DNA of 63,870 nt, filler included, from Craspedostauros australis (Eukaryota), in NCBI GenBank assembly GCA_030167865.1. It is 11 parts of 11 records of this genome, joined end to end, with 100 filler letters (N's around TTAATTAATTAA, not from the genome) between each part and the next. Parts side by side here need not be neighbours in the genome. Positions count along the whole stretch, not along the records: positions 20,159 to 24,903 come from JALAGF010002080.1; 10 more parts are not named here. One strand, given 5' to 3'. The notes below the pieces were generated by a model that had not been told where the DNA came from, searched no databases, and saw nothing but the letters and a program-made list of their open reading frames with translations. Both the position numbers and the translations under genes were made by a program. Shown here piece after piece: positions 989 to 52,797 of the stretch. Position 1 is the stretch's first letter; each line of letters starts with the position of its first letter.

Positions 989-3900
989 TCAATCTCGTGG
1001 CCAACCACCATGATCAAACATGGGGATGTTGGCGAACAGCTCATCGTCTGCCTTGATGAGCCCACTGCTGACGGCTTGGCTGCAAATGCGCACGAGCCGC
1101 CGCTCGATGCTGGAGGGAGAGGGGAATGATTCCGCATGGTTGCTCACCCATGAGTTGATGTCGTCCGAAGGACAGGAGTCAATGATGACGGACGGTACGC
1201 AGTTGTTGTCACCGACGAAGGAGGACTCGATATGATCAACGATGTTCTTGTGGTGAAACGCCCCGCCTTGGTCCCGGCCATCCCGGTCGGAGACCAGCGC
1301 GAAGATTCCGCGAGTGGTGGTATGGAGAAGCAACGCTGCATCATGAAGCGTCGGATCCCACCACGCCGGAAGTCCATGCATGGAGTCGGGAACGTCCGGT
1401 TGTTCAGCCAGCTTCAATACGTCATCAAGCGAGCTCGCGGCATCGAAGATGCCGTGGATTGACTTGGACATCCGCACCCGCCTCAACAATACGTACGAAT
1501 TGCGAACGGCCTCGATGGAGTGACCGCCCAAAGACAGACACGGGTCAGGCAGGGGGCATTGGGGATGAGTGTCGTATTCAGGATACAGGCTGATGCCCAC
1601 TCCTGTTAGATATTCTCCCCGACTGCCTCGAGTTTGGACAGTCTGGTTGCTGTTCCCAACCAGGCACAACCTGAGACATTGAGGAAGCAAGTAGGTTTTC
1701 GCGTATCTCATCATCTCGTCGCCAGATGGGATCAATTCGCTGCCAGTTCCCGGACCCAGCCTCGCAATGACGGCGGAACGAAAGTTCTCCCATGAGAAAC
1801 GTCCAACATCGCCAGCTGCATCATATGCGCCAGTGCGCCTCTTCAAATGCGCGCGAAGAGAATTCAACAAGCCTGTGGAAATGGCTTGTCTGTCAATGCC
1901 ATCGCGGCTGCCACCCTCATCCGAGTCTTCACGTCCACGTTCACGTTCACCTTCATGCCCCTCACCATCGCCATGGTGGGTGCCAGCATTGTTCCCTGGG
2001 GTGTATGGCCAGCCGTAGCACAGCAACGCAGCGCAAATGCTTGCTCGCAGACGAGCATTCTGTGCAAAGATGGTTGGGACATCCATCGTTCCGTTCTTGA
2101 AGCTGCCATCGCCACTGCCACTGCCACTCGCAATGTCCGTGCTTTCGTCTTCGCTCTGTTCCTTGGCAACCGGCACCAACGAGGTGTCGATTCCACGTTT
2201 CGTCGCATTGTGCGATGGGCTCGACCTATTGCTGTCGGTTGCGACAGCTTTCCAACTTTCCACGATATCAATGGTGTGACCGTCAGTGTAGGCCAACGCA
2301 CCGATGGCATACCTGGTGAGGTTCATCGGCACTCCCACTCCACGGTGGAATCTTGGAGCATCGGCGCCATACGCAATCTGGTGCAATTCTGCACTTGCTG
2401 CGCCGTTGGTGAAGTCACTGCCATCATTCAAGCTTCGATGATTCGTCGCGCATTGTGATCCGCTGAAACCAATGCCATGCTTGGCATCCAATTGCTCCAT
2501 GTACGCATTTCCCACGTTTGGGCCGTGCAGACTCATGACTGTCGCTGTCCAAATCTCCCGATGCACGGCAATGGATGCCTTCAACTTCTCATTAGATGTG
2601 ACATGTGTCACGAGACCACGCTCTTCTCGATTGCTTTGTTTGCGGTCGTGATGAAGCCGCCCTTCAATGGCTGATACGACGTCGGCAAGCCGAAGATCGA
2701 GCAATCGTCCGTCGGGCATCATCAAATCGATTCTCTGGCTCGGAGCTGTTGTTGCTGCTGCCGCTCCTGCACTTGCTGCCTTCGGATGTCCTTCCGCGCG
2801 TTTCTTCGTCGAGGATTGCGACGTTGGCATATCAGGTTTCATTTTCTTTCGTGCGGCCGTTTGTTGCCTGCTGCTGTCCGTCCCTTTTGATGTCGAATTG
2901 CGCTGGCCCAGATCGATTGCGCTCCCAGTGTTGCCGCCGACCCCATCAGCTCCGGCTCCTTGACAGCCAATTTTGACGATCTGCTCTCTCAATTTTCTCA
3001 GGGTGACGAAATCGGACCAGTTCTGCTTGCGCGTGCCAGCAGCAACAGTCGTAGTCGCGGCAGCAGGGAGAGGAGAAGGCGGAACCTTCGTACTGGAAGA
3101 CGCCACCGTGGCCGGGGCCGATGAAGGAACTGACGTTGCCGTTCCACCTTTTTCACGCAGCGCAACTGCATTCTTTTCGCGCTCCGCAGACGAAGCCGCC
3201 GCAGCAGCCACCGCGGCATGAATTTCCTGCTGTGCCTTTGCCTTGGCATTCACGAGAGCGTTATCGAACACATGCTTGATGGATGTAGTGATCGACGAGA
3301 GGTTCAGATGAGCCTGTCTGCAGCATGCATCTTGAGTTAGGCACGTCGTGGCTCTGGATTGGAATGGTAACGAAGTATCATGCATCATCGCATCGTAGTT
3401 GCCCAGGCCGTGCACAAAAGTGCCGACCACTATGCCAATATCGCAGCCTCTGTCCCACCAGCAAACTGGAGGAGGATCCTGGACTGTCTTTGGGACATGG
3501 AGGGCCAGGGCGAGAATGAGCTCTTCCGTGGTGACGAGCCTGATCTTGAGGTCGATGTCCAAAGAGCTGACCTCACTGATGGGGCAGCCGCGCTTTCCAA
3601 GCTCTTCGTACCCGAAGGACCCAAGTATGTCGTCAAGCACAATGTTGATGATGTGGTGTATGCGCGTGAGGATGAATATCCGGCGCAAGATGCGCAGGCC
3701 TGCACCTCCTCGCATTGTTTGCAGTAGGGATGGATCTGTGAGAACTGCGGGGAGTCGCAGTGTCTTGCGGCCTCCGTCGACTTCCTCGAACAGTTGCAAA
3801 GCTGTTGAAACCGCATTCGCAATCCAAACTCTTTCGACTGGATCCGATCCACCGATGGTTCGAAGCAAGAGTTCTTGATCAGGTTGCGTTGGAGACGCAT

Positions 3901-6900
3901 GGAGTTTCGTCAGTAACGACACTCCGACCTGCAGAGATACATGATAGAAGTCTGAACAGCGAAGGAAGGAATGTTGCATGCGTTCCGTCCGACCGAATGT
4001 ATATGTGCGTGTGCATGACTCGATGGTACGAGCACGCGGGAAGATCCAAATTGGGGAAGGATAACAAAGGGTGAGAGAACCATGACAGACCTTTGTCACA
4101 CTGCACCATCACTATCATATCATCGTTATCGCCACCGATAGCACCACCAGCATTGTACCCATTTCTATCGATCGACTCGAATCTATCGACTGAGTCCATT
4201 TCGGCATGTGCGTACTCGTACTGGTACTGTCGGTATGGTATGGCGAATCCACGAAAGACGGCATCCTTTGATCGAAAGACTTACATGATCTCAAAAACAC
4301 TTCGATGTCTTGAATGGGGACGCTTGTGAGGCTGGATTCGTGTCGGATCTTACAGAAACGGGAGAAACCGAACCTCAGAAAGGCTGCCGTCACTCGGTGA
4401 AACTGGGGCAACTCCCATGCCTGCCTGAATCTCTCCGTGGCTGGGTTTTCATTCTTGGCTCTGCGCATCATGCGTTTGCGATCCATGGATTTCTTGGGCT
4501 TCTTTTGTTTCGCATCCTTGCTGATCTTCTTCTTCGGGGTGGATCCTAGTTGGCTTGTCTTCTCACCTGACATCGCTCTTTGCAGCGACTCTGTATCCGA
4601 GCTCTTCTGTGCTTGTCTGAGAATGCCTTTCTGTCCCTGCTTGTGCGCCAATTTCTGCGCTTTCTTGGCCATCTCCGCACTGCGAAGTTCCTCCCTCTCC
4701 CGTTTCTTCTTGTTCTTTGCATCCTGCTTCTTTTGCAACTTCTCAAGCCGAAGTTGTTCCTTCTCTTCCTTCTCTTGCTGCTTCAGGAAAGCGATCTTAT
4801 CCTGCTTCCTTTGCTCTATCTCGACGTACTCGGCATACGGGTCGAACTGCTGGACTTGCTTTCTGCTGCGTTTGACGCCGTCATCAAGCATCTGAGCGAC
4901 GTCCTCGGGAGTCTCAACAGGCGCATCGAAGCCGACAGCCTTGGACCAAAAGTCTGGATCGTCCAAGTCGACATCCTTCTCACCGTCTCGCGTGTCAGCA
5001 ACGAAGCTTGCTTTGCTGAAGCTTCCCAATCCTGAACTACCCATGCCACCACCTTGCTGGGCTCCATAGACGATCTTCTTGGAGCTCTTGGCAAGGAGTT
5101 GGTCGATGTTCGATTCCATGAATTTCTCCGCGTCCTTGTCATCATCATCCCGGAACACGTCGTACGCCCCCCTCTTGAGCAACTCGTCGATCTCCTTCGC
5201 CTGTGCTTCCTTCTCGCTCTTCGCTTTCGGCTTGCTCCCATCACCCTGATCATTCTGCTCTCTGCTCTGCGACAGGACGGCTCGTTCCAGACCGAGCTTC
5301 ATGCTTGTGCAATGGAACATGTGCATTTCATAGGTTTTGGCGGTGAGAAGGCGATACACACGAACGGCTCTGGTTTGCCCGATTCGGTGAGCTCGGGCCA
5401 TCGCTTGGAGATCATTTTGTGGGTTCCAGTCGCTGTCGAAGATGATGACAATATCGGCCGCTGTCAAGTTCAACCCAAGCCCTCCCGCCCGAGTGCTTAG
5501 CAACATGACGAAGCGTTTGCAAGTCTTCCTCGTGAATCGGTCGACGGCCGCGGCTCTCGCCGAAGACGAGGTGGATCCGTCCAGCCGCTCGTAGCGGTAC
5601 TTCATTATCTTCAGCAGCTCTTCCAACAGGTTGAGCACCCGCACCATCTGGCTGAAGATCAGCACCTTGTGCCCGTTTTGGAACAGTTTCGGGAGGAGCT
5701 TGGACATGAGGACCATCTTACCGGACGACTTGATCAGCTGCTCGCCGAAGAGCTTCACGTAATCAACAGGCTGGGACGCAGCGTCTTCAGGTTTCTGCGA
5801 TGCCTGAAGGGCCGTTGCCGCATCGGCCAGGATCCGTTCCTCCGCCCCTCGAACCAAGTAGGGGTGATTGCAGCATTTGCGGAGCTCCATCATGACGTTC
5901 ATGAGACTCGGAGCATTGCTCGGTTTGGAACCCTTGAAGAGGAAGCCGGTGTTCCTTTCGTAGATGGCCTTGTAGTACTTCTTCTGGATGGGCGTCAACG
6001 TGACTTCCAGGATGGTTTCCTCCTTCGGTGGCAGCGACTTCTCGACATCTTCCTTCACGCGACGCAACAAGTACGGCTTCAGCAAGGAATGGAGCTCACC
6101 CACCTGCTCCGCATCTCGAAGTTCCCCGAACTTCTCCAAAAAGTCTTCCTTGGACCTGAATGCTTCCCGATCGGCAAAATGCAAGAGTGCCCACAGCTCT
6201 TCTGTCGCATTCGCCAACGGTGTGCCAGTGAGCAAAAGGCAGAAATCGCGAGGAACCGATGACAACTCATCGAAGAGCTTTGACTTTGAGTTCTTCAGCC
6301 GGTGGGCTTCGTCGACGATGAGTGCACGCCAACGTATACTTGAGATCGTTGCGATATCTTTGAGCACGACCTCGTATGTTGTGATCATGATGTGGAACTT
6401 CGTGACGTGCTGTCGCCGTAGCTTTGTCGAGCGTTCTTTGGACACGTATGGCGGCATGTAGTGAAACTCATGTTCGGCCAGGAATGCTCTTGCATCTGCG
6501 GAACCGTGGTACAGAAGGATGTTAAGATCTGGCGCCCAAGATGTGGCTTCGGACTTCCATTGCCCGATGAGTGATAACGGAGCAACGACGAGGAACGGTC
6601 CGCGAAGACCCAGCATCGGGTTGTCCTGCAGCTGCTTCAGGAAGCATAGTGACTGGATCGTTTTCCCCAAACCCATTTCATCCGCCAGGATGCATGAGCG
6701 GTGATTCCACCAATTGAAGAGCAGCCAGTTCACTCCTTCAAGCTGATAACTCCTCAGCCGGAACCCTTCGCCTTCGTCCTGCCGGTGGACCAACTTGGCC
6801 TCTCCGTTGCTGTCCTTCTCCATCATGCCACGGGGACGCTCTGATATTCCAAACCTGGGTGATTCCTTAATCTTGCGGAAATCTCGAATGCTCGGATGCG

Positions 6901-8983
6901 CTTTGTTAACAGCGCGCTGGATTATCTCCGCTGGGGGCGGCTGCTGTCGAACCCAGAAATTCTCAGCCTCGTCCACCCCATCTCGCTTGATGTCTCTCCA
7001 GTACTCCCATGTTACCTCCGCGTACGGGAGGCCTTTCCATTTGACGATGTATCGCACGTTATCCTCCGGATCCCACGCAACCCCCTTGTGGATGCTGAGT
7101 AAGTTGCGGTGAGAATTCCACTTGTCGATGTCTTTCGAATGGGTCTCGACGAGATCGCCCTTGTCGCTCTCGCTCTTGCCATCAATGATACTGCTGCTGC
7201 TGTTGCTGTCGTTGTTGGCGTTGCTATCGCTATTCTCGTCGCCGTTGTCTGGATGCGGCTCCGTTGGGGCCTCGGAGATCTCCCCGTCTTTGCTTTGGGC
7301 TGGGCTAGAGCTCGACAAATCCTGCGGTTGGCCCTCGCTTTGTTCCGTTTCCAGATTTGCGGTTCTCTGTTTCGCAAAGATCGTTACATCCATATCGGTT
7401 TCGTCGCAAGACATTATGCGTTCAACTTCCAAATGTGTTGGTGAAAAATATTCCGAAGCATGATCGCTTTCGTCAATGGGGTCACCTGGTGGTATCCCAG
7501 CTTCATTCTTCGTTAGTTGCTTGTCATAACCCGGATGGGCTGTCGATAGGACCGCCCGTTCCTCTCTGGTCACCTTCTTCCAGTCCTTTCCGAGCGCGAT
7601 CTCCTGAGCTTGCGCAAAGCGTCTCAGCTTTTGTCGGGCTGTGTTGTTGGACTGGTCGAACTTGATGAGATCTGTGCTTCTTTCCCAACAAGCATGGAGA
7701 TGTGAACGCCCTCGCCATTTGACCAGATACACCTCTTCGAGGTTGTTGGCGTCACCTTGGTCTGCGACAGGCTTGATTCGGAACTTTGGTCGGCCGTTCG
7801 TGTCTTCGAACTCTTTTGCGCATGCCAAAAGCAAGACGATCGGGCACTTCGTAGGATTGAGTCTGGAGATCTCAATCCGTACCGACGGGTCGTTCCACAC
7901 CATTGGATGCGCGATGGCATTGTACTGCAGCCGATGCGCCTCAGCGGCATCGATGGTTGGAGACGAGGTTGGTGGATCGGCATGATCTCCCGGGATATTC
8001 TCTGGTATCCATTCGAGTTCAGTGACAACCCTGCAGTTCCACGCCAATGGCTTTTCCATGACGAAGATGTGGTTGAAGCATTCTCTGGAGTGCCACAAAG
8101 TCGTCAGCATGCCGAGGGGCGGACTATCCAGCGTTGCATTCGAGACGAGTGCTGTTGCCATCTGCTTTGACTTTGGCTGGCCAGCGGATCCAGAAGACCC
8201 CGCCATCCAAGCTTGATCGCCACCGGCATCGTCCGACTGGGCGCTCCCATCGCCATTTCCGTGCTGCTGACGATCGTCGGAGGAGCCAACCTCATGAGTG
8301 GAACCGATGCTGCTGCGGTTCGCTCGGGCAGAATTCGACCGGGCGAGCTTCAGAGTCTTTCTTTTCTTGAGTGACTTGGATTTGGCTGGTTCTCCAAAGT
8401 CGTCTTCATCGTCTTCGGACGAATCCGTGAGGAAGTCGTCCGAGTCAGTCTCCTGGGTCTCCTGGTAGATGGGCCGTTGTCTCTCCGAAATTCTGCCAGA
8501 CGCTCGCGACTTGTTGCGGCCCCAGTCAATGTACAGGCCTTTTAACGACAACCGTACAACGAAGGGCTGCTCTGACAGCACGCTCACAACAGAATGCTTC
8601 CGCTTTGCAGGGGTTTGCGTCGGCATCATCGCGGCTGCATTTGGCGGTGGGTGGGTCGGCGGGAGTGATGGTTTGCGCGGGATCGACATCGACATTGACG
8701 ATCCGCCTGTCGCATTTTCCTTGGTGGTTGGAACTGCGGATGTCTGCATCTTCGTCGGAATTGTCAGAGTGATGCTCGGGGGCCGACGCTGCGATGCTGA
8801 CGTTGATGTAGCCGCTGGATGTCGCGGAATCTTCATCGACACCGCATCGCCCGAAGCTCGTCGGTCTGCGCCGGGCGGCGGCGGTCTGGACCGTTGTTTC
8901 TTGGGAATGGCTCCCATCATGAAGGATGTTGCCGGCTTGTCGTGCGCATCCTTGTCGGTGTCTTTGTCTCTGTTGGGATTCAT
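989..8983 (-). CDS. CHD-family (CHD6-9/Kismet-like) chromodomain SNF2 helicase, 2 exons (8983-4285, 3951-989)
   Basis: Two chromodomains (YLVKWRGRSHLHACWE, YIVKWKGLPYAEVTWE). SNF2 motifs LADEMGLGKT, IVDEAH, LLTGTP, MELRKCCNHPYL, STRAGGLGLNL, DSDWNPQNDLQAMARAHRIGQ. C-terminal LPAWWD..HDAALL. A GTAAG...CAG intron at 4284-3952 joins the two long ORFs in frame (FLRSY|FYHVSLQ). Confidence 0.92.
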
Positions 8984-9987
8984 GGTTGCGAGACGCCACG
9001 AAGAGAGGGGCAACTGCCGCTCTCAGCACGCACTTGTGGTGACCGGCAGAGGTTGGTGCTTTGTGGTATCTGTACGAGCTACGGGTCCAATACGGACATA
9101 GAAGTACGAGTACGACTGTGTGTGCTACGACCTATGTATCGCAGTAGGTATGTCGGTGGACTTCGAATAGGATGATGTGCTGGGCTGGGTGCATTCAGCG
9201 CGACCTCCGAACAACTGTGTGTGGCATTCGTATACAGCAGTATGGAGCGGCTGTTGCGATGGTGCTCTTCGCTGATCTGGTGCTACAGGACGAGCACGCG
9301 AAATCGCATTGATGCGGCAGTGCGATTGTGAGCGGTGCCTCGGGTTGCCTCCGTTTGTGCTGGCTGCCATCCTTTGCTGTGGTCGCTGCAGGCTTCGCAG
9401 TGGAAACTGTACCGTGGCTCTCGTAGCCGATCTTGTTCCGCCATTGTCGCAATCCGGAAACCACACATCTCTGTGTTTGCGTGTTTGTGCCTTTGAGGGT
9501 TTCGATTGTTGCGCTTGTGGTCGGGAATCATTAATCCCGCTAAATTAATTGTATATTTGATGGATGTCGCACCTCCCATTGGTTTTGTTTTGGTTGTGTC
9601 TGTGTTTGTCGTTGTTCGTTGTTCGTTGTTGGTTGGGGCCTCACAGAGGCCGCCAAGGCATAATCATTGCTCTGCATCTACTACGACTACTCCAGCATAT
9701 GCAATAGAATGTATAATATCTTTGTACCACACTATTCCATGATGAAGTATTGCACCACGCAAAAAGTCCATGCTGTGATGCTGGTGCGCTGATGGTTTCG
9801 AATGCACAGGTTGTGCTAATATCATCGTCGCTTGTCGCTTGTCGCGATCATCATCTCTCCAGAGAGTACGACACTTGCCTTCGTTGCACCTGGTCCTTGG
9901 AATGAAAGAATAATCGCAGATTGACGAACATGTGCCCACTCTACTCTCATGGTACTCGTACGAGTATATACTCCATGATGCTCCGTC

Positions 9988-20158: not shown

Positions 20159-23100
20159 CCGATTCCGAATTAGCAGGCATGGGTCCACCTTGCTCTGCCG
20201 GAAGCCAAGCTTGATCAGGATGTCCACAAGCTTTTTGTTCCATTGCCTCGCGCTCTGTACCAGCCCGTAGATGGTCTTTTTCAGCAGCAGGCATTCATCC
20301 GGTTCGTGTTCCATTCCTTTGGGACACTGCATGTAGATCTCCTCTTCGAGTTCTCCATGTAGGAAAGCAGTTTCAAAGTCGATGATGATGCTGTCGGTCT
20401 TCAACAGCATCTTCATAGTGAGCATCACACGGTATGTTGCATCATGGATCACGGGCGCATGGTGAGCGGAGAAATCCACTCCAGCAATCTGCGAGTATCC
20501 ACAAGCAACCAACCTGGCTCGAAAGACGCCGTTCCTCTTCTCCTTGAAGACCCACTTCGTCTTCACACATCGCCGATCCCTTGGCATCTCGTTCTTCTTG
20601 ATCTTCTGCCAGACTCCTCGTCTTGTCATATCGTAGAACTCTTTGTTGATGGCCTCCCGCCATTTCTTTCGCTTTGCTGGATCTGCATGATCCCAGCATT
20701 CTTCGAATGTCGTGGGGTCCAGCATCATAGCAGTGTATGCATGCTCGGACATCTCATCCCATTTCTCTCTCTCGACCCTTTGACTTGCCGTAATGAAGTC
20801 ATCCAGTCTCATCCTTCCTTGTGTGGTGTCAATCATCATACTGGCCACATCTCGATTGAACACGGATAGGTTTGTATGGAAGTCCCGTTCTTCAGCGGTT
20901 GCAGGGGTCGTCTCAACTACCTCAGCTGGTTCGTCGTTCCCACTGCTTGACTCTGAGTCGGATTCATATCCTGGCGGGTTATTGTGCGGTGCCAAATCGC
21001 GTAGCATCCGTGACATCCTTGCCACTGGTCTAATGGGAGAGTACTCGAGGTGTTTGCCTTCAGCCACTTGCCTCCGAGTCACTCGTTCTTCGTCCCTTCC
21101 GGATTCATCGTCGTATTCCTCGTCCGATGGTTCGTCCCCTTGGGCAGGTAGCAATTCATCTTGCTCTCGAGTATGGTCTTCAGTATCATCGTAGTCTATG
21201 CCGGACTCTCTACTCTTATCAGCTGATGCGGCCTTCGCTTTCCTCGCGATACCCGTATCACGCTCCCAAGTCACCTTCGTATTACGGAGTGCTGCTCTGG
21301 CATCGAAGTCGTCGTCTTCCAGGTCCACCCACTGTGTCCTGTTGGCATTCTCAATACCCTTGAGTTGCCCATACGACTGGTTCATCCATGTCACGTCTCT
21401 GGTGATCAGGACTCTCGTAGTTGCCAGATTCATCATGCGGTACACACCACTCGCATGAGACTGTCCGTATCCAACGAACATGGCTGGTTTGGATCTATCA
21501 TCCAGTTTCGCCTTGATAGCGCGACTGCCGATGAAAACCATTCCGATCTCCCCAAACACACGCAGTCCTTGCGCGTAGGTTGGGATTTGCCCATTGAGCA
21601 ACAGGCACGCAGGTTCCCTTGATTTAGTCTCGATGATGTTCTCAATCTGCGTTGCATTCCTTGCTGCCTCTGCCCATAGCTTGCCGCGTAGCTGTCTTGG
21701 TAGGTGTGCCTGGTTCAACATTGACCTGACCTTACCATACAGTACCGCGAACTTCCGGTCCACTCTTCCATTCTGCTGTGGCGTTGATGCCGCGGTGTAT
21801 TCGAATGTTGGGGCGAATCCTGCCTTCAACAGTAGTTTCTCCGCGCTGTAATTTTCGCCAGCGTTGTCACATCTGATATTTTTCACTGTCACTTGTTGAT
21901 TGCCCAAGAGCCATTTCAACAACGACATCAGCTTGGATCCGACTTCGCTTTTCTCTTTCACGAAGTAGCTCCAGCAGTAATCACTGTAGTCATCGATGAC
22001 CAGCAGCCAGTATTTTCCGTGACCGAAGCTTGTCGCTTGGACACTCGAGGTATCCATGAAGAGTCGTTCGCCAACTCGCTTCGCTCGTGGTTGAAGAGTT
22101 TTGGTCAGGCCTTTCTGTCTTGCCTTCCCGATTGCGCAATCCTCGCAGGGATTGAGCGTTCCTGTGACGTTCCATCCGTAGTGTCTCGCCGTTCTGGAGA
22201 TCGTGTAAGAGTCAACGTGGCCTAGCATCTTATGCAACTTATTCACATCCATGGGCTTCTTCGTGTCGAATCCGATGTTCGCCATCTCTTCGTCTTTGGG
22301 GACTGGAACCATGTTCACACCCAACACAAACCCACTGTGCGTTGCCATGATCCGGTCAAACCGGATGCGCTGTCCATGCTTCTCCAATGCGATGATGACA
22401 CCTTTGTTACTGATGTCGAACCCGTTCTGGAGTGCTTTACCAATGCTGAGGAGATTCACCCAAAGCTTCGGCACGTACCTCACTCCCTTCAGGATGATGA
22501 TGGCGCTCTTGCCATCCTTTTGCAACACTTTCATGCGTAAATCTCCGACCTTGGTGGCACGCAAGAATTTACCGCTTCCGACCTTCACCGAAAAATTAGA
22601 GAGGCGAACATTAGTCATGCCTTCGTCGTTATTCGTGAGATGGCATGATGCTCCAGTGTCGCCCAACCATGTGTTAGCTTCATGTTGGTCTGGTGCAATA
22701 AGCTTGCGGCTGTTGCTGCTCGCCTCGAGGTCCCCGACCACCATGGCCAAGTCATAGCCTCGAGTAGCCATCGCGATGTGGTCCGCCATCTCCAGTCGGT
22801 GTTGCGGACTCCCCACACGGGGTCCTCTCTTTGGCAATTCGCGACACTCCAATCCATTTCGGACTTCAGTATCTTCCCAGTTGTACATCCACATGAGTCG
22901 CTGAGCTGACATTTTGCTCATTCTTGCGATCAGGTGATTTGGGAGGAGTGGGAGTTGCTTTTCTTCGAGTAGCTCATTAACCATCACGAGCTTGCATGAC
23001 ACATCGAACATTCCGTTGATGCCGATCTGCGTGAGCATGTAGTAGAGCTCACGAGCGCCCATACACTGTGCTCCTGCCTCGATGGTCGCCTTTCTCACGT

Positions 23101-24814
23101 CGTAGCATAGAAGTGCTACATTGAAGCGCACATCGTTCGCCTCCAATACGTTGGATAGGGAGACCCTTAAGGCGTCCTCCACTGATCCGAGTCGACCAAG
23201 GATCTCGCGACGGCGAGCAATCTCGGCTTCAGTGCTCGGTGGGAAAGTGTCATCTCCCCAGATGGTGCGGATTTTGAATGGACTATACTCGGTGCAATCC
23301 GTGCACCATGAGTACATCGCTCCGCGAGTGAGACAGAGTGGGCACCATGCGTCCATTCTGCTTCCCTCACATGCGCGGTCAATCTCTTCACGCAAGAAGC
23401 GATCGATAGGGTTACCAGTGCGAGTCACTGTCGTTCCTCTCCCACGCGTAGTCGGCGCGTCGTCGAAGTCCATTCCAGGCATCGCGATCTCTTCATTGTC
23501 CGCGATGATCTCGTCGATCACGTCGTACTCAATCAGGTCTTCGCCCATGAGCTCGAGGATATCGACCTTGCTGTCGTTGGTTGGCGACTCGACTCTTGCA
23601 GCTGGAGGGAATGTTCCCATGAACTCCACGATATCGTCCTCGTCGTCGCTGTCGATCATGATCTCGTTGTGATCGTTGATTTCGACGAAGTCTCCGTCCG
23701 CGATGATGAGCGCCATATCATCCATCGCGTCGTCGCCATCCATTGCCACATTGGCGCTTTCTGCGTCTTTCATCGCTGCCTTCAGCTTAAAGCACTGAAG
23801 GATCTTGTGCCCTGCCTTTCCGCAGTAGTTGCACTTGCCATCGAACTGCACCTTCTTGAGTCCGCCTTTGGCGTTGGCGTGGTGACCTTGTTTCTTGGCA
23901 CCACCGCCCTTCTTGTTGTTGTTGCCGCCCTTGGCTGGCGCACGACAGTCCGCCTTCTTGTGCCCGTAGGCGCCACAGTTGCGACAGTTTCCCTTGAACT
24001 GACCAACTCCAATTAGTGCGAACTCTTCGCTACCGTTGTTGCCTGCGCGCTTATAACCATGTTTGAGATGGTGGCGGTCGTAGGTGAGGCTCACGGCTTC
24101 GTGGATGTCGCCCACAGTCATCTCTCGTTCCTTTCCTAGGAACTTGAGCTCGAGCAACTTCACATCCATCTCGCACTCGCGGCCGAGTGCGTTGAGGACG
24201 AGCATGTTGAATTGCTCCACATCGACGATCACCTTCAGGTCGATCAGTCGGTTTCGAAGGACCTCCATGTCCGTCAGGAAGAGATCCGGATTCTCTCCCT
24301 TCTTCAGCCGCATCCCNNNNNNNNNNNNNNNNNNNNNNNNNNNNNNNNNNNNNNNNNNNNNNNNNTAGATGCGCTCAAGAGCCACCCAAGCTGCACGAGG
24401 GTCTCCTCCCCCGTTCAGCATGCTCTTGCATCCCCACACCGCCTCGAAGGCAACTTTGCCTTCCTTCGAATCATGGCTGATAGCCAAGGTCAGTTCTTCG
24501 TAGGCGTACTTCGCCATCGCTTCCTTGTACTCGGCCAGGTCCGCAGCGCTCGGCTTGGTGCTTGCCTTGGCGCTCGTCTTGGTGCCGGGTTTGAGCTTGG
24601 TACCTGCCTCGGTCTTGATGGTTGGGACCAGGCTCTCGGTAACCTCAGAAGGAGCTTTCACTTCCACCTCAGAGTAGGCCATCAAGAACATGTCTCNGTA
24701 ACCCTTGCGGTTAGCACGAGAGAGGAACTTGGCCAGCCAGAACTTCCAGTTCTCCTTCTTGCCGTCGAAGTAGACCACCNGGAGGCGGTCGGTTTTGGCG
24801 TTGATGGTACTCAT
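20159..24814 (-). CDS. Copia Gag-Pol polyprotein (3'-truncated at the gap; internal N run)
   Basis: Single open frame of more than 1500 aa from ATG 24814 (MSTINAKTD) with gag, PR, IN and RT motifs. Confidence 0.9.
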
Positions 24815-25292: not shown

Positions 25293-25645
25293 ACAAATGC
25301 GCTACAACACCACGAGGCTTGCTGTGAATCCTCGCGCATCCTCGTGCACATTTTCGCACATCTCCACACACACACACACAATTTTTCACGCAAGGAAGTG
25401 AATCTCATCACGACCGAGCATCAACACCAATACAGCAACCATACAGCACCCCATACACCATAGAACATAGAATACAATAGAATACATGCAATAGAATACA
25501 ACAAAGAATTCAATACACAATCGACCACTCTACAAACATCATCTTGTACTCGCAGAGCATTGAGCAGTCTACTCTCTGGTTTGATGTCAAATCCACAGCG
25601 ACAAGAAGCGACAACCATCACCAACTCATCCCCAACCAAGTTACC

Positions 25646-27294
25646 ATGGATCCGCTTCAGCTCATCAAGTCGGTGTGTACTCCACCGGACTCCTCATCTT
25701 CTCGATCACCATCGTCTGTGGACTCATCTTCAATGAGCAGACCAAGGTCTCATCCGAGGTCCACCCAGTGGTCGCCGTCGTCATCATAATCGCCGCCCTC
25801 GTCTGGCTCAACATGGTGGAGGGAGGACAGGGGTCCCTCGTCAGTCTCCCACCAGTCGACCGCGACCTCTACGTCGAATCCCACCCAACCGCCCACCAGT
25901 GCACCTCCCTCGCCCACAAGGGTGACAACCTCGACCGCCACCTCATGGGACGTCAGTTCATGGTCCTCCTCATGGTCTTCACCATCAACCAGTGCGGTGC
26001 CCCGCTCGCCGATGCCGAAGTCTTCGGACTCCCAGACATCATCATCCAGATCTTCCTCGGATCCGGAGCCGCCATGATCCTCATGACTGCCCAAGCCGGA
26101 CAGCTCAACTCCCAAGTCAATGCCTCCCTCTGCATGCTTGACTACATCATCAACTTCTTCGCCGTCTTCACCCTCTATGTTGCCCTTGCCATCGACTTCT
26201 CTAGACTTCTGCATTCGTGCTACCTCGTCCAGATGTTCTTCGTCTGAGCCTCCGGCAAGGAAATCGAGCCGAAGGAACCACCACGTGACGGTGCCCAGAA
26301 CCTCTTCTACTGGGGCTGCATCCTCATCTCCCTCGCCATCCTGTGCTACGCCATGGTCGTCACCCTGATTGCTCTCTTCGATGGAAAGACCACCATGTGG
26401 GCCGGAGTACCAAACGGAGTCGCCGTCATCCTCTTCTTCCTCTTCATGTCCATCGTCGGTATGCTCGAGGGTATGCAGATCGCCTTCTTCGCCGTCGCCA
26501 AGCTTCCAAAGGAGGACCGTGGAGACCACCCAATGGCCCGCAAGACCTGCGAGCTCCTCTTCCGCGGTGACGGACGCAACCTTCCAGGATTCATGATCGG
26601 GCATCAGATCTGCGTCATCATGTGCTTCTTCATCATCGCCCGTGTCACCACCCTCGATGTCGAGGTCGGAACTGGCGAGAACATCTTCAGAGTCTCCGAC
26701 AGCACCCAGGAATTCTTCAACACCAGACTTCTCGGAGCCCTCATCACCACCATCATCGCCTCCATCACATGGCAGCTGGTCGCATCCGTCTTCCCCATCG
26801 CCTTCCTCTCCAACCCAATCGTCTACATCTTCCTCCAGTTCTGTCTGTTGTTGGAAGCCACCGGCATCTGCTCCGGAGCCTGGGTCCTTGCCTCCGTCCA
26901 CAAGGCCGTCTCTGGCTTCCAGCTGGATGAGGTGTACATCGGCATCCCAGAGGAGCGCGCCGCCAGCATGAAGACAGACCACAAGAGCAACCGCAACCTG
27001 CACCTTGGAACCAATGTGCTTGTCGGCGAGGCCGGTTCAACCGCCGTCCCACGCGAGTACCCCGAACTCCAGAAGGCTCACGCTGCACAGAATGAGCCGT
27101 ACTCCGTCCGCCGCGAGCGCATCCTGTCGAACATCAAGGGACTCCGCGAGGAGATCAACGCCTGCAGCAACGAGGATGCCGCCGTCTTCGAGTCTGCCCT
27201 TCGCATGGAGACTGCTGCCATGAACAAGCTGAACCAGGAGGAGGGGAACGACAGTGCCGCCGAGAGTGACGAGGAGATGGGTGTGCAGAGGTAA
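25646..27294 (+). pseudogene. SIT: Silicon transporter (SIT) pseudogene or disrupted allele
   Basis: SIT motifs EGGQG, MGRQ, CMLD, EGMQ, IG(R>H)Q, about 10 TM helices and a C-terminal coiled coil. Disrupted by a 2-nt frameshift (gtgtgtac) at ~25675 and an in-frame TGA at 26245-26247. Confidence 0.9.
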
Positions 27295-27731: not shown

Positions 27732-29906
27732 TCAAGCAAGAGTGGTCACGTAGTCGACAACATCAGTGTGGCCCCATTTTTCCGCAATGTCCAGCGCAGT
27801 GTCGCCATCGATATTCTTGATGCTGATGTCTGCGTTGCACGATTCCACCAAGTACTTGACGACCTCCAATCTACCATTCCAACTTGCCCGCCAAAGTGGT
27901 GTACTGCCATTCTTGTTTTGAATGTCGATTTCTGCGTTGCCTTGTTCAACTAAATACTTCACGACCTCCAAGTTGCCATGAATGCTCGCAAGGTGCAGTG
28001 GAGTGCTGCCATACTTGCTGGTTTTGATGTTGATATCGACCTTGCCTTGTTCAACCAACGACTTCACAACATCGAGATGACCATCAGCACTGGCGCGATG
28101 GAGGATGGTGGAGCCATCCTCGTCTTTCACGTTCAAATCGACATTGGGTGTTCCGATGAGATACTTGACAATGTCGACGTGATTGTTATGATATGCCTTG
28201 AAGATTGGAGTCTCGTGTTTGTCGTTCTCAGCGTTGATATTGGCCTTGCCGGATTCAACCAGCCACTTCACAACATCGAGATGGCCATTGCCACTTGCGA
28301 GATGGAGCACGGTGTTGCCATCCTCGTGTCGGGAGTTGGGATGCATGCTTGGTGTTCCGATGAGATACTCGACAACGTCGAAGTGGCTGTTGCGATATGC
28401 CTTGTAGAGTGGAGTCTCGCACTCATGATTCTCAGCGTTGATGTTGGCTTCGCCTTGTTCAACCAGCCACTTCACAACATCCAGATACCCATTCTGACAT
28501 GCGAGATGAAGCACGGTGTTGCCATCCTCGTGTCGGAAGTTGGGATATATGCTTGGTGTTCCGATGAGGTACTTGACAATGTCGAAGTGACTGTGACAAT
28601 ATCCCACATAGAGCGGAGTCTCGCACTCATGATTCTCAGCATTGATGTTGGCTTCGCCTGATTCCAGCAAATGCTTCACAACATCGAGATGCCCATGCGC
28701 GGCTGCAAGATGGAGTGCAGTATTGCCAGCCTTGTTCTCGGCGCTGACTTTGATGATCGCTTTGCCTGAGTCCACCAAAGGCTTCACCACATCCAGACGA
28801 CCTTCAGCACTTGCGCAGTGAAGGGCAGTGTTGCCGTCGTTATTCTTGGCGTTGCCATCCACCTTCAGATCGTCTGACTGTATCAAGTACTCCACCACAT
28901 CCAAATGACCTCCAGCACTTTCGCAGTGAAGCAACGTGTCGCCATTCTCGTCTTTGGCATTGATGTCCACCTGACCTGACTCCACCAACCATCTCACAAC
29001 ATCCAGATGACCTTTGGAATATGCAGACTGAAGAGCCGTGCCGCCAGCTTCATTCTCAACATGAACATCTGCCTTGCACGACTTCACCAGATACTCTGCA
29101 ACATCCATATGCCCATTTCTGTAAGCAACATGAAGCGCGGTATCGCCGTCATTGTTCTGGACGTCGATGGCCACAGTACGAGCCTCCATCACATACTTCA
29201 AGATATCAAGATGACCCTTCAGACACGCATTGTGGATCGCAGTATTGCCAAATTCATCTTGAACATTGATTTCCACTCCACATGATCCAACGAGGTACTC
29301 CACAACATCCAAGCGTCCATGAAGACATGCGGCATGGAGGGCATTCTCACCCTTCTCATCTTGCACGAGAGCGCTTGCAGAATATGACTCGATCAGAGTC
29401 TTCACGATGGCCACATGACCCTCGGTACATGCGTCGTGGAGTGCTACCTTGCCGAAGTTGTCCTGGAGGTTAACATCTGCAGCATGCGACCCGGATAGGT
29501 ATTCCACGACATCAAGGTTGCCCTGTGCGCATGCATAGTGTAGCGCAGTCTCTCCATCCATGGATTGGGCATTGACGTCTGCTCCGCATGACTCCATCAA
29601 CTGTTGGATCGTTTCAAGCTGGCCGTTGGAGCATGCGAGGTGGAGCGAAGTCTTGTCGCGGTCATCCTTGATCGTGTCGATGAAGGTTTGTGGAAATGCT
29701 GTCTTCCATGCGGTGAGGATGTCCACATCTCCTTGTTCTGCGGCGCGCAGAAGATCCTGGTCGGTGACGGTCGGGTTGGATGCATCACCAGGGGTCGACT
29801 TGAGCGAAAGGAGAGATGACCATTTTGCGGTTTGTGTTGACGAAGCCCGGAGGTTGCGCAATGGTGAGGTGGACAGTATAGCGAGTCGTGGAAGGATGAA
29901 GACCAT
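27732..29906 (-). CDS. Ankyrin-repeat protein (roughly 19 repeats)
   Basis: Continuous G.TALH.A...G.LDVV.YLV repeats. The likely start MVFILPRLAILSTSPLR (29906) is followed by an S/R-rich leader. Confidence 0.9.
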   Translation of the reverse strand: MVFILPRLAILSTSPLRNLRASSTQTAKWSSLLSLKSTPGDASNPTVTDQDLLRAAEQGDVDILTAWKTAFPQTFIDTIKDDRDKTSLHLACSNGQLETIQQLMESCGADVNAQSMDGETALHYACAQGNLDVVEYLSGSHAADVNLQDNFGKVALHDACTEGHVAIVKTLIESYSASALVQDEKGENALHAACLHGRLDVVEYLVGSCGVEINVQDEFGNTAIHNACLKGHLDILKYVMEARTVAIDVQNNDGDTALHVAYRNGHMDVAEYLVKSCKADVHVENEAGGTALQSAYSKGHLDVVRWLVESGQVDINAKDENGDTLLHCESAGGHLDVVEYLIQSDDLKVDGNAKNNDGNTALHCASAEGRLDVVKPLVDSGKAIIKVSAENKAGNTALHLAAAHGHLDVVKHLLESGEANINAENHECETPLYVGYCHSHFDIVKYLIGTPSIYPNFRHEDGNTVLHLACQNGYLDVVKWLVEQGEANINAENHECETPLYKAYRNSHFDVVEYLIGTPSMHPNSRHEDGNTVLHLASGNGHLDVVKWLVESGKANINAENDKHETPIFKAYHNNHVDIVKYLIGTPNVDLNVKDEDGSTILHRASADGHLDVVKSLVEQGKVDINIKTSKYGSTPLHLASIHGNLEVVKYLVEQGNAEIDIQNKNGSTPLWRASWNGRLEVVKYLVESCNADISIKNIDGDTALDIAEKWGHTDVVDYVTTLA
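28070..28740 (-). repeat. ~3 tandem 204-bp units (two ankyrin repeats each) inside the ankyrin gene
   Basis: ttccgatgag recurs at 28151, 28355 and 28559 (period 204), with near-identical 68-aa peptide units. Confidence 0.85.
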
Positions 29907-30387
29907 GATGGAGCTGGCGTGTTTCGAGATGGAACGGCTTGTTGCTGAGATCAGATCAATGCGACGGTTTTTTCGATGTGATTTGAATGATTGTTTGGCT
30001 GGTCGTAGTCGCTTGATCGCATCTCTGTTTGCCTTTATGAGGCTGGTGGTCTGTTTCATGGTCATTGCTGGTGGTATCCCGTGCTCCGTTTCACCCAGCG
30101 TGCATGGCATTCCGTTGATGACTGTTTCACGATGTTTTTCGTTTCACATTGTTACCGTGATGTCGCTGTGATCACCCGATCTACTTTGGCATCAACGTGA
30201 ACATCAGCTTGAGCATTGGCTTGANNNNNNNNNNNNNNNNNNNNNNNNNNNNNNNNNNNNNNNNNNNNTTAATTAATTAANNNNNNNNNNNNNNNNNNNN
30301 NNNNNNNNNNNNNNNNNNNNNNNNGGCAACCACGGTGCAAACAACAATGACAACGATAATGACAGCAGAACCAGCGCAGATGGATTC

Positions 30388-36727: not shown

Positions 36728-39700
36728 TCACAATGCCAGCGAACGCTGCGTTCGTCGCTTGGACGAGCCGCCGCTTCTGGGCGTGGGGGAGATGAGATCG
36801 ATGGGATTCTGGAACAGATCGGGCGTGCTCATGTGCATGAGGGCCTCCTCATTCTCCTGCGGTGAGCGTCGATGGTTGCGACGACTATCGCGCGTGCGTT
36901 TGGGCGATCGCGGAGAACGGGTAATGCTGCTGCTGCTGGCGTTGTGTGCCGAAGGGCTGCGCGTGCTGGAGGCGCGGGTTGATTGTCGCGTGGGGGATTT
37001 GCTGGTGCGGGATTGTGGTGATCGGCGTGTGCTGGATCGTGTGATGCGTCGCGACGGGGATTTGCTGGAGGCGCGGCCGCTCGTGTGGCCACGATCGCTG
37101 CGGCTGCTGCGCGACTTGCGGGAATCCGTTGTGGAGCGCGGTTTGGGTGATTTGCCGGCCTTTTGGGATTCGGAGAACCGATCGACGGAACGGGATCTGC
37201 CCTTGCTGTTGCTCCTGCGCCTGCTGCTGGGTCTGCCCGAGGATCTCGAATTGCGTGAGGATCCGTTGGACTGGCTGGCTGAGGTGCTGCTGGTACCCGA
37301 ATGGTTGCTGCTCATGTCCCTGCGCGAAGCCCGAGATGACGGCCGCATGTCGTTGGCCATCTCAAAGTACTCGTCCGGATCGGATCCCTCGCTGGCACCT
37401 GCCACGGAGCTTTCGGCGCTGGAAGTGCGCGAGACGGATCGTCCGCTGACGGGTTTGCGCCGATCGCTCGACGTGCTGTTGTTGAAGCTGTCGCTGAAGG
37501 AGCCGTTGCGCGCTACGTTGCGCGAGCTGGGTGGTTTGCGCGTGCCCGTGCGGTTCGACGCGGATGATCCGATGCCGGCTGCCTGCACCATGCTGACCAG
37601 ATCCTTGACATCCAGCGAATGGTTGCGATGGACGGTTCTGCTGCTGGGTGGCTTGCGTCGCAGCGATGTTTTGGACGAGTTGCCAGCAGGCGTCAAGGTG
37701 GGCTTGGGATCCAGCTCTTCGAACGAATTGCTTCGCGGCGCTACGCTGGCGCGCACCTTGGGCCGTGGCGAGCTTTGGAGCATGCTCATGCTGCCGCCAC
37801 CGAGGGTCTCCATCGCTGCCATGGACTGCCTGCGCCGGCGTGATGATGATGACGACGCTGACGACGACGGTGGCGGTGCCACGCAGCCCATGGACTCGAG
37901 CGCTTCGTCACTGTCAAACGAGTTGTTGCGCGAGACAGATCTGGAACCCGGGCGGTCACCACGACTGCGGTGTCCCGTGTCAAAGGTGTCACGGGAATGC
38001 GATCGAATGCGCGAGGAGGAGGACGCGCCGTTTGCTCCAGGCGCACCGCTGCCAGAAGCGTTGGCACCACGTCGCACGCTTGCACCGCGGCGCCGTGTGG
38101 CTGGATTGCGAGACGTCGATCTGCCGTTGGCCGTGCGGGAGTCCCGTTTCGAACGCTCTCCGCTGCCCGACAACGATGGTGCGTTTGACGATGCGAGACC
38201 TCCGACGTTGCGGCTGCTGCGTCCACGCGATCGCGACGGGGGGACGAACTCCTTCTCCTCGAGGGCCTCCACGGCCTCACGAAAGGATTGGGTTTTGGTC
38301 ATCAAATTGCGTCGGTTCATGGATCTGCGGTTGTTGCCGGGCGCTGACGATGTTGGCTGTGCTGGTTTCGAGGATGCGGGGCGTGTGGATCCGAGATGAT
38401 TGCTGCTGCTGTTGCCGTCGAAATTGATGCTGCTGTTGCTGCTGTTGCTATTGCTGCTGTGTACGCTGCTGTGTCGGGCGCTGTGCGGCTTCAAATCCTC
38501 CATGTCGACGCTGAGCTTGCCCGAATTGTGCATGTTGGCAGTTTGTTGGCGACGGCTTCTGCTCTTGGTGAAGAGCAACTCGCCATGGCCCTCCAACGCT
38601 TTGAAGGACTCACGGAAGGATTCGCTGCGATTCATGAGGTTGCGACGGCTGATGCGGCCACCGCCGCCTTTTACGGTTGGCAGGTTCCTCTTCTTTTGCT
38701 TTGCCAGGAGGTTCGGTGATTTGATTTTGGAGGCAGAGTCGGATGAGGGTGGCGCAACCACGTCCTGGAACAAGGAGCGCTTGGAGTCCGAGAAGAAGTT
38801 GTTCTTCTCCAGCGAGAATCCCTGAAACATTTTGTTTGCGGTTGCCGTGTTCTGGATGGACGCTGACATGCTGGCCCGTCGATTCGATCTCTTGTTCGCA
38901 GTCGGCGGTGGCCCTGCTGGCGGTGATGGCTGCGCGTCCTGTATCCTCGACAGCCTCTCCCCGGACATGATACTGACGTACTCCTGCATGGCGATGTCCA
39001 TGGTCTCGCGGTACACCCATGCCTTGAAGAAGACGCGTTTGGAGTACTTGGCTTTGATGAAGGCATCTCTCTCATCCAGGTTGGAACGAACGTGCGGTTT
39101 GACGGTGTCGTCAGTCTTTTCTTCGTCGTCTCCGTATTTGCCTTCGAACGCATCATTGACGCGCTTGTTGCCTCCGATTTCCACAGCGATGACTTCCTTT
39201 TCCTTCCCTGTGTTCGTGGTTGTGCGAGATCCATTGGATGCGAGAGTGTGTATAATATTATATGACAGAACGAAGATACAAGCATGGCGTATATATGTAC
39301 GTGTGCATATGTATGGTGTGTGTGAGAGGTTGAGATGGGACGTGGAATATGTATTGTGGGCCGGAGTTGTGCCATACGAATTGAAATTGAGTACAATCGA
39401 GGTTGCAGATGCTGGGAACGAGGCAACTAAACATCTGGAATGTCCAGAGGCGCGTCGTTGCAATTGTGTTTGTCATGCGCATCCATAGCCGCACCCATAC
39501 CCGCACATATACCCGCACATATATGCATTCCTGTATGCATGCTCACTCACAGTCATCCAAAGTAAGACTCCGAACGAAGCAAATATGAACGCCCAGCCGC
39601 CTGTGAGCGCCGGAGCAATGGAAGCAGCAGAATGCCCCAATGGTGCGGCTGTCGGTCGGCGATCCAGGCGGTGGCACAATGAGAGACGCCCACGTCGGCT

Positions 39701-52134: not shown

Positions 52135-52797
52135 TGCCAATCAACAATCAACAATTGAGAATGGAATGGAATGGATTTGTGTTGTGGTGCGTTGCGTTTC
52201 GCTGTGGATGATCAACGGCATCGGCATCAACAGCAACCGACGACCTGTTGTGCACGAGCTCGTGCCTCCACTTCTCACACACAACAGTCGACGTACTCTC
52301 TGATTCGTGGCACGTCGGATACAGACAGTGAGAAGTACGGCGTGGCAGGAATGGAATGGAACCAAGAACGAACCAAACAAAACGGTGTTGCACGAAGAGA
52401 AGAAACTGCCACGTCACATGACGTCACACACGATCGACAATGTGGGGGTCATTCGTGTTGACGACGTTGGTCTTTTGAATCCTGTCTTGTACTTGATTCA
52501 CGAATAAATCCAAGATCGGGCCTACATGAGTCTCTGCAACACGTTTTTGGCTTCGGTCGCAAACCAAACCAAACTTCAACAACACCACATGCCAACGAAG
52601 AAGAAAGGAAACCGCCATGGCGGTTGCGATTGTGATTGCCATGACGATCACGCATTCATGTTCATGTCCGTCTCACAAATCGAACGGACGCAACGGATTG
52701 TGTGACACTTGCACGAGCAGAGCACTGGAATAGATCTGGATCCACACTGACCCACAAACACACGCACAAGCAGAAGCACAAACTGAAGCCGATCAAG

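What the first reader, a model, noticed from the sequence alone, without database searches (positions are those of the whole stretch)
22680..23775. Copia polyprotein carries a ~360-aa cargo module between Gag knuckles and protease
Seen: typical copia elements have only a short linker here. This element has an acidic spacer, a CxxC-x10-CxxC ribbon (WCPLCLTRGAMYSWCTDC, ~23295-23350) and a predicted all-helical domain (ALLCYDVRKATIEAGAQ..LYYMLTQIGI..LVMVNELLEEKQLPLL, ~22890-23130), all in frame. Inference: an accessory protein encoded inside Gag-Pol, for example an anti-silencing, targeting or particle-associated factor. I do not recognise it as a named family.
Basis: partly seen in the sequence, partly recalled or inferred. 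Interest (0 to 1): 0.75.

Follow-up and report, generated by a model that had tools for sequence, protein, structure and literature searches.

The report
SAM-like cargo domain in diatom retrotransposons
A diatom jumping gene carries, between its RNA-packing part and its protease, an unnamed folded domain (a zinc finger plus a small five-helix bundle) that is kept by selection, is shared by a whole branch of related elements, and is probably cut out as a separate accessory protein.

Summary
Confirmed, and broader than reported. The 374-aa stretch between the second Gag knuckle and the protease is in frame. It holds an acidic spacer, a four-Cys finger (CxxC-x9-CxxC, not x10) and a helical domain. 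It is under purifying selection (dN/dS 0.08-0.21). The 225-aa core gives 154 matches in this genome, down to about 30% identity, and 40 of 40 fetched loci are copia elements. AlphaFold folds it (pLDDT 74.5). Its last 90 residues resemble SAM/NusA-AR/HhH five-helix bundles, but only weakly (Z 5.2 or less), with no Pfam family. A second copia clade in this genome and 11 of 120 outside relatives carry a related bundle in the same slot, all on one branch of the protease-integrase tree; the relatives' median linker is 69 aa. A motif like the one at the protease/integrase junction flanks the domain, suggesting proteolytic release. Best reading: a lineage-specific, dispensable accessory adaptor that binds a host protein, analogous to the Sirevirus Gag extension (45%). 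No function is shown; nothing points specifically to anti-silencing. The scan earlier noted different inserts in this slot in other genomes.

The parts
20160..24814 (-). Single Gag-Pol open frame of a Ty1/copia element, cut by assembly gaps (RT end, RNase H and LTRs not in the window)
   Evidence: Pfam zf-CCHC, Pol_BBD, rve, SH3_retrovirus, RVT_2 in copia order
23945..23986 (-). CCHC zinc knuckle 1 (residues 277-290)
   Evidence: PF00098 E 0.0076, below the curated cut-off
23792..23833 (-). CCHC zinc knuckle 2 (residues 328-341)
23699..23761 (-). Two junction-type motifs after the nucleocapsid (residues 352 and 366); candidate protease sites
   Evidence: kept in 11 of 11 aligned clade members; cleavage inferred
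23450..23752 (-). Acidic spacer (residues 355-455), variable in length among relatives
   Evidence: 33 D/E, 2 K/R in 101 aa; dN/dS 0.06-0.34; alignment
23471..23491 (-). Junction-type motif just before the folded domain (residue 442); candidate protease site
   Evidence: a like motif in 7 of 11 aligned members, absent in 4
23294..23347 (-). Four-Cys finger CxxC-x9-CxxC (residues 490-507), probable zinc site
   Evidence: three Cys invariant and one at least 90% conserved in 27 sequences; like motif in 5 outside relatives; metal binding inferred
23147..23419 (-). N-terminal half of the folded domain: helix, Cys finger, two helices (residues 466-556)
   Evidence: AlphaFold model, block pLDDT 60-90; barely tested on its own by the fold searches
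22874..23146 (-). Five-helix bundle, SAM/NusA-AR/HhH-like (residues 557-647); the part shared with the second clade and with outside relatives
   Evidence: Z up to 5.2; profile match to outside family, probability 91.7
22733..22753 (-). Junction-type motif between the domain and the protease (residue 688); candidate protease site
   Evidence: kept in 11 of 11 aligned members
22418..22669 (-). Aspartic protease domain
   Evidence: PF22936 E 6.8e-15
22268..22288 (-). Same motif at the protease/integrase junction (residue 843), where a cut is required
   Evidence: enriched at this junction in outside relatives
21380..22078 (-). Integrase core and SH3-like domain
   Evidence: PF00665 E 0.0094 (below cut-off), PF25597 E 1.9e-10
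20165..20590 (-). Reverse transcriptase, cut by the gap
   Evidence: PF07727 E 6.4e-31

Best explanation
The insert encodes a lineage-specific accessory protein. SHOWN: it is in frame, under purifying selection, predicted to fold, confined to one branch of copia elements, and absent or replaced by other modules in close relatives. INFERRED: the element's protease cuts at the junction-type motifs on both sides and releases a zinc finger plus five-helix protein of about 245 aa in the particle. INFERRED, least certain: the SAM-like bundle is a protein-binding surface that engages a host protein (transport, retrosome assembly or a restriction factor), so the slot works as an exchangeable host-interaction bay, like the Sirevirus Gag extension.
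For: Selection: dN/dS 0.08-0.21. Fold: pLDDT 74.5, pTM 0.76. 21 of the top 50 structural rows have SAM in the title. The second clade's independent model shares 11 of 50 top chains. Dispensable in the lineage: median linker 69 aa, short-linker and other-module elements nested among carriers. Faster evolution than core parts: against L007-L010, identity is 59-66% in the insert, 78-85% in N-terminal Gag and 91-95% in the protease. Between close copies the bundle alone has pN 0.21-0.23 against 0.05-0.07 upstream in the insert and 0.00-0.03 in the protease. Junction motif: 6 of 6 matches in the window frame lie between domains; in outside relatives 9 matches in 2,402 residues at the protease/integrase junction against 4 in 67,420 residues of protease, integrase and RT. 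Net charge of the bundle is zero or negative in 24 of 27 members, which suits protein rather than nucleic-acid binding.
Against: No partner, expression or cleavage was observed. All fold matches are below the tool's threshold for helical bundles (Z 5.2 and 5.8 at best). The motif pattern was read off these same sequences. It had 0 matches in 1,360 residues at the pre-RT junction of outside relatives, one match inside RT in L021 and L022, and the site just before the domain is missing in 4 of 11 members. No window had pN above pS, so there is no sign of an arms race. The link to the outside family falls to probability 2.8 when its four closest members are left out.
Confidence: 0.45

Rival explanations
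1. Cis-acting assembly module: the SAM-like bundle self-associates or binds Gag, brings Gag-Pol molecules together and times protease dimerisation, like a retroviral transframe region.
For: It sits directly before the protease in all carriers examined. Many of the top structural rows are SAM oligomerisation domains. Never seen outside a copia element in 40 of 40 loci.
Against: Most relatives replicate with a 35-90 aa linker, and unrelated modules occupy the slot among close relatives. Sequence turnover is high for a core assembly function.
Confidence: 0.25
2. Nucleic-acid or chromatin-binding factor (anti-silencing or integration targeting), using the Cys finger and an HhH/alphaCTD-like bundle.
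For: Structural rows include Rad51 N-terminal, polymerase X, DisA and HRDC domains. The Cys finger is conserved. The N-terminal half is zero or positive in charge in 22 of 27 members.
Against: The bundle is neutral to acidic. No conserved Gly-x-Gly hairpin is visible in the joint alignment (motif recalled). The second clade has no such Cys finger before its bundle. Copia targeting domains that I read of sit on the integrase (CoDi-A chromodomain, PMC2774666 passage).
Confidence: 0.18
3. A captured or ancestral domain kept only because it must fold harmlessly inside an essential polyprotein; a spacer without its own function.
For: Any sequence inside the frame is selected against stops. Several relatives hold only long acidic spacers here.
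Against: 19 invariant columns at 32-44% identity, including Cys, Trp, Ser-Leu-Ser-Asn and Arg positions. dN/dS of 0.09-0.19 in the helical part against five subfamily-B loci with measurable dS (0.33 in a sixth, partial one). The fold is kept across deep branches.
Confidence: 0.08

Closest known systems
CoDi-type Ty1/copia elements of diatoms, most like CoDi6 (Maumus et al. 2009, PMC2806351; passages and section 18 read)
   Same: Copia domain order, diatom host (a silicon-transporter gene is next door), tandem CCHC knuckles as reported for CoDi6.2-6.5.
   Different: The passages read describe no domain between knuckles and protease. No CoDi reference was placed in my trees, so the CoDi group is not established.
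Sirevirus extended Gag (as described in PMC2829016, passages read; the primary paper by Havecker et al. 2005 was not read)
   Same: A copia lineage whose Gag region is about twice the usual size, with extra protein downstream of a central CCHC knuckle; reported to bind host Light Chain 8 proteins.
   Different: Plant-specific, and a predicted coiled coil. Here the extra part is a globular Cys finger plus five-helix bundle flanked by junction motifs. No sequence comparison with Sirevirus Gag was run.
SAM / NusA acidic repeat / RNA polymerase alphaCTD / Rad51-N five-helix fold
   Same: Model residues 94-182 align over 60-77 residues at rmsd 2.0-3.4 with SAMSN1 SAM (Z 4.8), AF1548 (Z 4.6), NusA (Z 3.9-4.0). 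The second clade's model gives NusA Z 5.1-5.5 and polymerase X Z 5.4.
   Different: No Pfam or PDB sequence match to these families. All Z below 6. The top row in both wide searches is a mitoribosomal protein.
Burro gypsy-like elements of planarians (PMC6431247, passage read)
   Same: Extra domains carried in frame between gag and pol.
   Different: Gypsy superfamily; the cargo there is BCL2-like and env-like, not a Cys finger plus five-helix bundle.

Membership tests
Ty1/copia LTR retrotransposon | Domain order Gag-PR-IN-RT(-RH) | tested here: met
   for the window up to RT; full frames of 1,746 and 1,982 aa in L021 and L022 run on past RT.
Ty1/copia LTR retrotransposon | Flanking long terminal repeats | tested here: met
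   Not in the window (gaps). Terminal direct repeats about 7 kb apart in 3 of 5 carrier loci tested: 98-99% (L022), 100% (L061), 90-95% (L031).
CoDi6 group | Tandem CCHC fingers in Gag | tested here: met
   Two knuckles; feature from PMC2806351 section 18.
CoDi6 group | RT clusters with CoDi6 references | not testable with these tools
   No named CoDi sequences were available; the outside relatives carry no accession or organism.
SAM domain | Match to a SAM family profile | tested here: not met
   No SAM family among Pfam hits for 27, 10 and 19 members.
SAM domain | Five-helix SAM fold | tested here: inconclusive
   21 of 50 rows titled SAM, Z 3.1-4.4; best SAM Z 4.8, rmsd 3.4, 77 aligned; below the tool's stated threshold.
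SAM domain | Head-to-tail self-association | not tested
Helix-hairpin-helix / alphaCTD-like DNA-binding domain | Fold | tested here: inconclusive
   Z 3-5.5 to NusA, Rad51-N, polymerase X, DisA.
Helix-hairpin-helix / alphaCTD-like DNA-binding domain | Conserved Gly-x-Gly hairpin and basic DNA-facing surface (recalled) | tested here: not met
   No such conserved columns in the 19-row alignment; net charge zero or negative in 24 of 27.
Sirevirus Gag extension | Coiled coil downstream of the CCHC knuckle, plant host | tested here: not met
   The model is globular, with helices of 19 residues or fewer; host is a diatom by the neighbouring silicon transporter.
Sirevirus Gag extension | Binds Light Chain 8 proteins | not testable with these tools
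   Needs a binding assay.
Four-cysteine zinc finger | Four conserved Cys in two CxxC pairs | tested here: met
   spacing x9. Like motifs: 6 in 12,171 linker residues against 0 in 79,214 other residues of outside relatives. Metal binding itself not tested.

The most novel reading that the evidence does not exclude
The nucleocapsid-protease slot of this algal copia lineage is a modular cargo bay bounded by protease sites. Its oldest cargo is a previously unnamed SAM-like domain family, released as a free accessory protein that acts on the host (counter-defence or targeting), with distinct alleles exchanged among copies: a retrovirus-style accessory protein hidden inside a copia polyprotein.
Probability: 0.3. 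Interest if true: 0.78.

Novelty: new variant of a known kind. Interest (0 to 1): 0.56.

Why it matters
Copia elements are usually described as structurally uniform, with extra genes as separate frames (PMC6317226 passages, for plants). An unnamed, selected domain family inside the polyprotein of a whole lineage, at a slot that other relatives fill with other modules, gives a concrete handle on how retrotransposons of diatoms deal with their host. The domain is small, predicted to fold on its own and can be expressed, so partner, fold and cleavage are directly testable. It also supplies a new profile for annotating these elements.

Tried and rejected
Searches without a useful hit: Pfam on the insert and alignments (best E 0.018-0.13); PDB sequences with three profiles (best were designed repeat proteins and ribosomal eS17, E 0.004-0.2, rejected); ESM Atlas (best 0.76 and 0.81); Foldseek against PDB and viral models (no E below 0.001); the word-indexed protein search with the domain (0 of 1,365 candidates) and with the second clade's alignment (0 of 8,000); the 1.84-billion representative search (1 hit, a lysine-rich repeat protein, rejected); metagenome contigs (0 of 31 and 0 of 594 pattern matches confirmed). 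These blanks reflect divergence, since relatives were found through the protease-integrase region. An outside domain as query found nothing in this genome, so a host gene source was not found with that query. Direct profile comparison of the two own-genome clades was weak (probability 2.8 and 15.6). No RNA holder listed. The bootstrap tree did not finish; supports are SH-aLRT only. Rejected: assembly artefact (colinear in many contigs); conserved internal TGA as recoding (in the 5 such loci fetched, 4 have several stops and a deletion from the domain to the integrase end, and the fifth has several stops too); the 234-aa antisense frame (length 165-275 aa among copies; taken as a shadow frame). 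Literature: 'diatom, LTR retrotransposon, polyprotein, unknown domain' gave 0 papers; 'sterile alpha motif, retrotransposon, gag' gave 55, of which the 20 listed showed no such element by title or abstract start; 'additional domain, between gag and, protease' gave 1. The library lacks most subscription journals, and Repbase and GyDB could not be searched.
Full report
Observation. The window holds one long minus-strand frame (ATG 24814 to the gap near 20160) with Pfam matches to the zinc knuckle, copia protease, integrase, SH3-like and RT domains in copia order. A silicon-transporter gene lies beside it, so the host is taken to be a diatom. Between the second knuckle (ends at residue 341) and the protease motif (716) lie 374 residues with no Pfam family (best E 0.13). 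The Cys spacing is CxxC-x9-CxxC.

Selection and spread in the genome. A DNA search gave 51 matches, in a near group (90-96% identity) and a second subfamily (about 70-73%). Pairwise dN/dS over residues 347-711 is 0.13-0.21 against 4 near copies and 0.08-0.18 against 10 second-subfamily loci, where dS is close to saturation; the protease gives 0.00-0.04. The 225-aa core as a protein query gave 154 matches from 150 scored candidates of 165 (not copy numbers), many at 33-45% identity in long open frames. I fetched 40 of these loci, chosen mostly for long frames and diversity; 40 of 40 have gag or pol sequence on the same strand. An alignment of 27 domains has 19 invariant columns, among them three of the four Cys. 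Terminal repeats of 98-100% identity in two carrier loci show recent activity (3 of 5 loci tested had such repeats).

Fold. AlphaFold with that alignment gave mean pLDDT 74.5 and pTM 0.76, confident over about residues 466-645 and poor in the tail. Foldseek found nothing significant. The wide structural search aligned model residues 94-182 to small five-helix domains: 21 of 50 rows have SAM in the title, others are NusA, Rad51-N, polymerase X and DisA, with Z 3.0-4.9 (best 5.2). By the tool's own calibration this may be only a common arrangement. The N-terminal half with the Cys finger was barely tested on its own.

A second clade in the same genome. As a control I fetched 20 loci of other protease hits. 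One has a 41-aa linker; most belong to a second clade whose knuckle-protease interval is 362-413 aa. Its domain gives at least 150 matches in the genome, folds at pLDDT 81.6 into five helices, and its top structural rows are again NusA (Z 5.1-5.5) and polymerase X (Z 5.4), after a mitoribosomal chain (Z 5.8). 11 of the 50 top chains are the same in both searches. Direct profile comparison of the two clades is weak (probability 2.8-15.6). This clade has no CxxC-x9-CxxC finger before its bundle.

Outside relatives. Domain-only searches of the public collections failed, so I retrieved relatives through the protease-integrase region: 279 hits, best 120 listed, 35-50% identity, all without organism names. 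Of the 102 with both landmarks, the median linker is 69 aa and 21 are 200 aa or longer; at least two lengths are mis-measured because of extra or missed knuckles. An iterated profile seeded with three outside linkers gathered 11 of 120 at E below 0.01, all upstream of the protease; the best of 240 reversed decoys scored 0.67 in the last round and 0.012 in the first; own-genome loci reached only E 0.016. The profile of 10 of these matches the window clade's bundle at probability 91.7 (score 37.7; reversed 18.1; best of 30 column shuffles 14.0) and the second clade's at 61.9 (28.5; 9.3; 12.5). The seeds had first been noticed with the window clade's profile, and without the four closest members the match to the window clade fell to probability 2.8, while that to the second clade stayed at 52. 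Three more proteins (P0007, P0083, P0085) look alike by eye but do not pass. A like Cys motif occurs 6 times in 5 outside linkers and 0 times in 79,214 other residues.

Tree. On protease-integrase trees of 44 chosen rows, all 18 carriers and candidates fall in one 26-row branch (SH-aLRT 91-92, not starred) that also holds 8 non-carriers. The two own-genome clades with P0007 and P0085 form a 7-row branch at 99. The label needs 4-5 changes against a shuffled mean of 14.1. On a 132-row FastTree it needed 2 changes against a shuffled minimum of 9 for 12 carriers among 105 labelled rows. Relatedness alone clusters labels, so this shows confinement to a lineage, not a single origin. Non-carriers in and near the branch hold short linkers, acidic spacers, a basic module, or a Trp/Tyr-rich module.

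Candidate cleavage. A short motif (acidic residue, x, Ala, two mostly hydrophobic residues) recurs as conserved islands in the otherwise poorly alignable spacer. In the window frame its 6 matches are at residues 352, 366, 442, 688, 843 (protease/integrase) and 1357 (before RT). The pattern was derived from these sequences, so the shuffle test is biased. Out of sample it has 9 matches in 2,402 residues at the protease/integrase junction, 25 in 12,171 in knuckle-protease intervals, 4 in 67,420 inside protease, integrase and RT, and 0 in 1,360 just before RT. One match lies inside RT in L021 and L022. The mapped Ty1 sites (PMC6952103 passages) are loosely similar. Cleavage is inferred, not shown.

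Rate pattern. Against L007-L010 the insert is 59-66% identical, against 78-85% for N-terminal Gag and 91-95% for the protease. Within the second subfamily two versions of the bundle coexist: pN 0.21-0.23 and pS 0.47-0.57 in the bundle, against pN 0.05-0.07 and pS 0.29-0.39 upstream in the insert (4 pairs, not independent). This fits old alleles swapped by recombination or local relaxation; pN stays below pS.

Mechanism. A part that is conserved where present, dispensable in close relatives, replaceable by unrelated modules, faster evolving than core enzymes and flanked by junction motifs behaves like an accessory protein. Its weak SAM-like fold and neutral-to-acidic charge point to protein binding. 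I put a released adaptor for a host protein at 0.45, a cis-acting assembly or protease-timing module at 0.25, a nucleic-acid or chromatin factor at 0.18 and a passive spacer at 0.08.

Comparison and novelty. The element is an ordinary Ty1/copia, probably CoDi6-like by its tandem knuckles (PMC2806351, passages and section 18; supplement unavailable, and it may list domains). The closest functional analogue is the Sirevirus Gag extension (PMC2829016 passages). Membership in the SAM or HhH families is not met by sequence and inconclusive by fold. The paper searches (listings, plus passages of seven papers) showed no description of this domain, within a library that lacks most subscription journals. 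Two unchecked notes of this scan describe other inserts in the same slot in other genomes; a sequence look-up found no look-alike. Verdict: a real, unnamed accessory domain family of one copia lineage; new variant of a known kind; interest 0.56.

Noticed in passing
window 25585-27294 (+): Silicon-transporter gene split by one in-frame TGA at 26245-26247: the two parts match PF03842 positions 11-200 and 204-510. Pseudogene, allele or sequencing error.
   Followed up: partly
window 27732-30143 (-): 803-aa frame of many ankyrin repeats with three recent 204-nt internal duplications.
   Followed up: no
window 4115-9022 (-): 1,635-aa SNF2 helicase with chromodomains, CHD-type remodeller; the adjoining 1,039-aa frame 989-4108 has no Pfam hit.
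   Followed up: no
window 36728-39472 (-): 914-aa frame without a Pfam hit in a GC-rich stretch, overlapped by a 601-aa frame on the other strand.
   Followed up: no
window 50655-58192: Two inverted repeat pairs (289 nt at 73%, 61 nt at 72%) about 6.4-7 kb apart, probably inverted paralogous genes.
   Followed up: no
L051-L055 (e.g. L052:3323-4054): A multi-copy derivative that keeps a stop-ridden copy of the domain and has lost the stretch from the domain's end to the integrase end; several copies share the same stops.
   Followed up: partly
P0027, P0038, P0040, P0060 (linkers): A different, Trp/Tyr-rich conserved module in the same knuckle-protease slot in another branch.
   Followed up: no
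P0025, P0036, P0053, P0121 (linkers): A very basic module, in two cases with an extra knuckle, in the same slot, nested among carriers of the five-helix domain.
   Followed up: partly
window element against L007 (C341): Synonymous divergence is uneven along the element: pS 0.23-0.27 in Gag, 0.5-0.9 across insert and protease, 0.2-0.5 in the later integrase; suggests recombination between subfamilies.
   Followed up: partly
L061:829-7014, L067, L074: The second clade has an extra 100-150-aa low-complexity extension before Gag and frames up to 2,062 aa.
   Followed up: no
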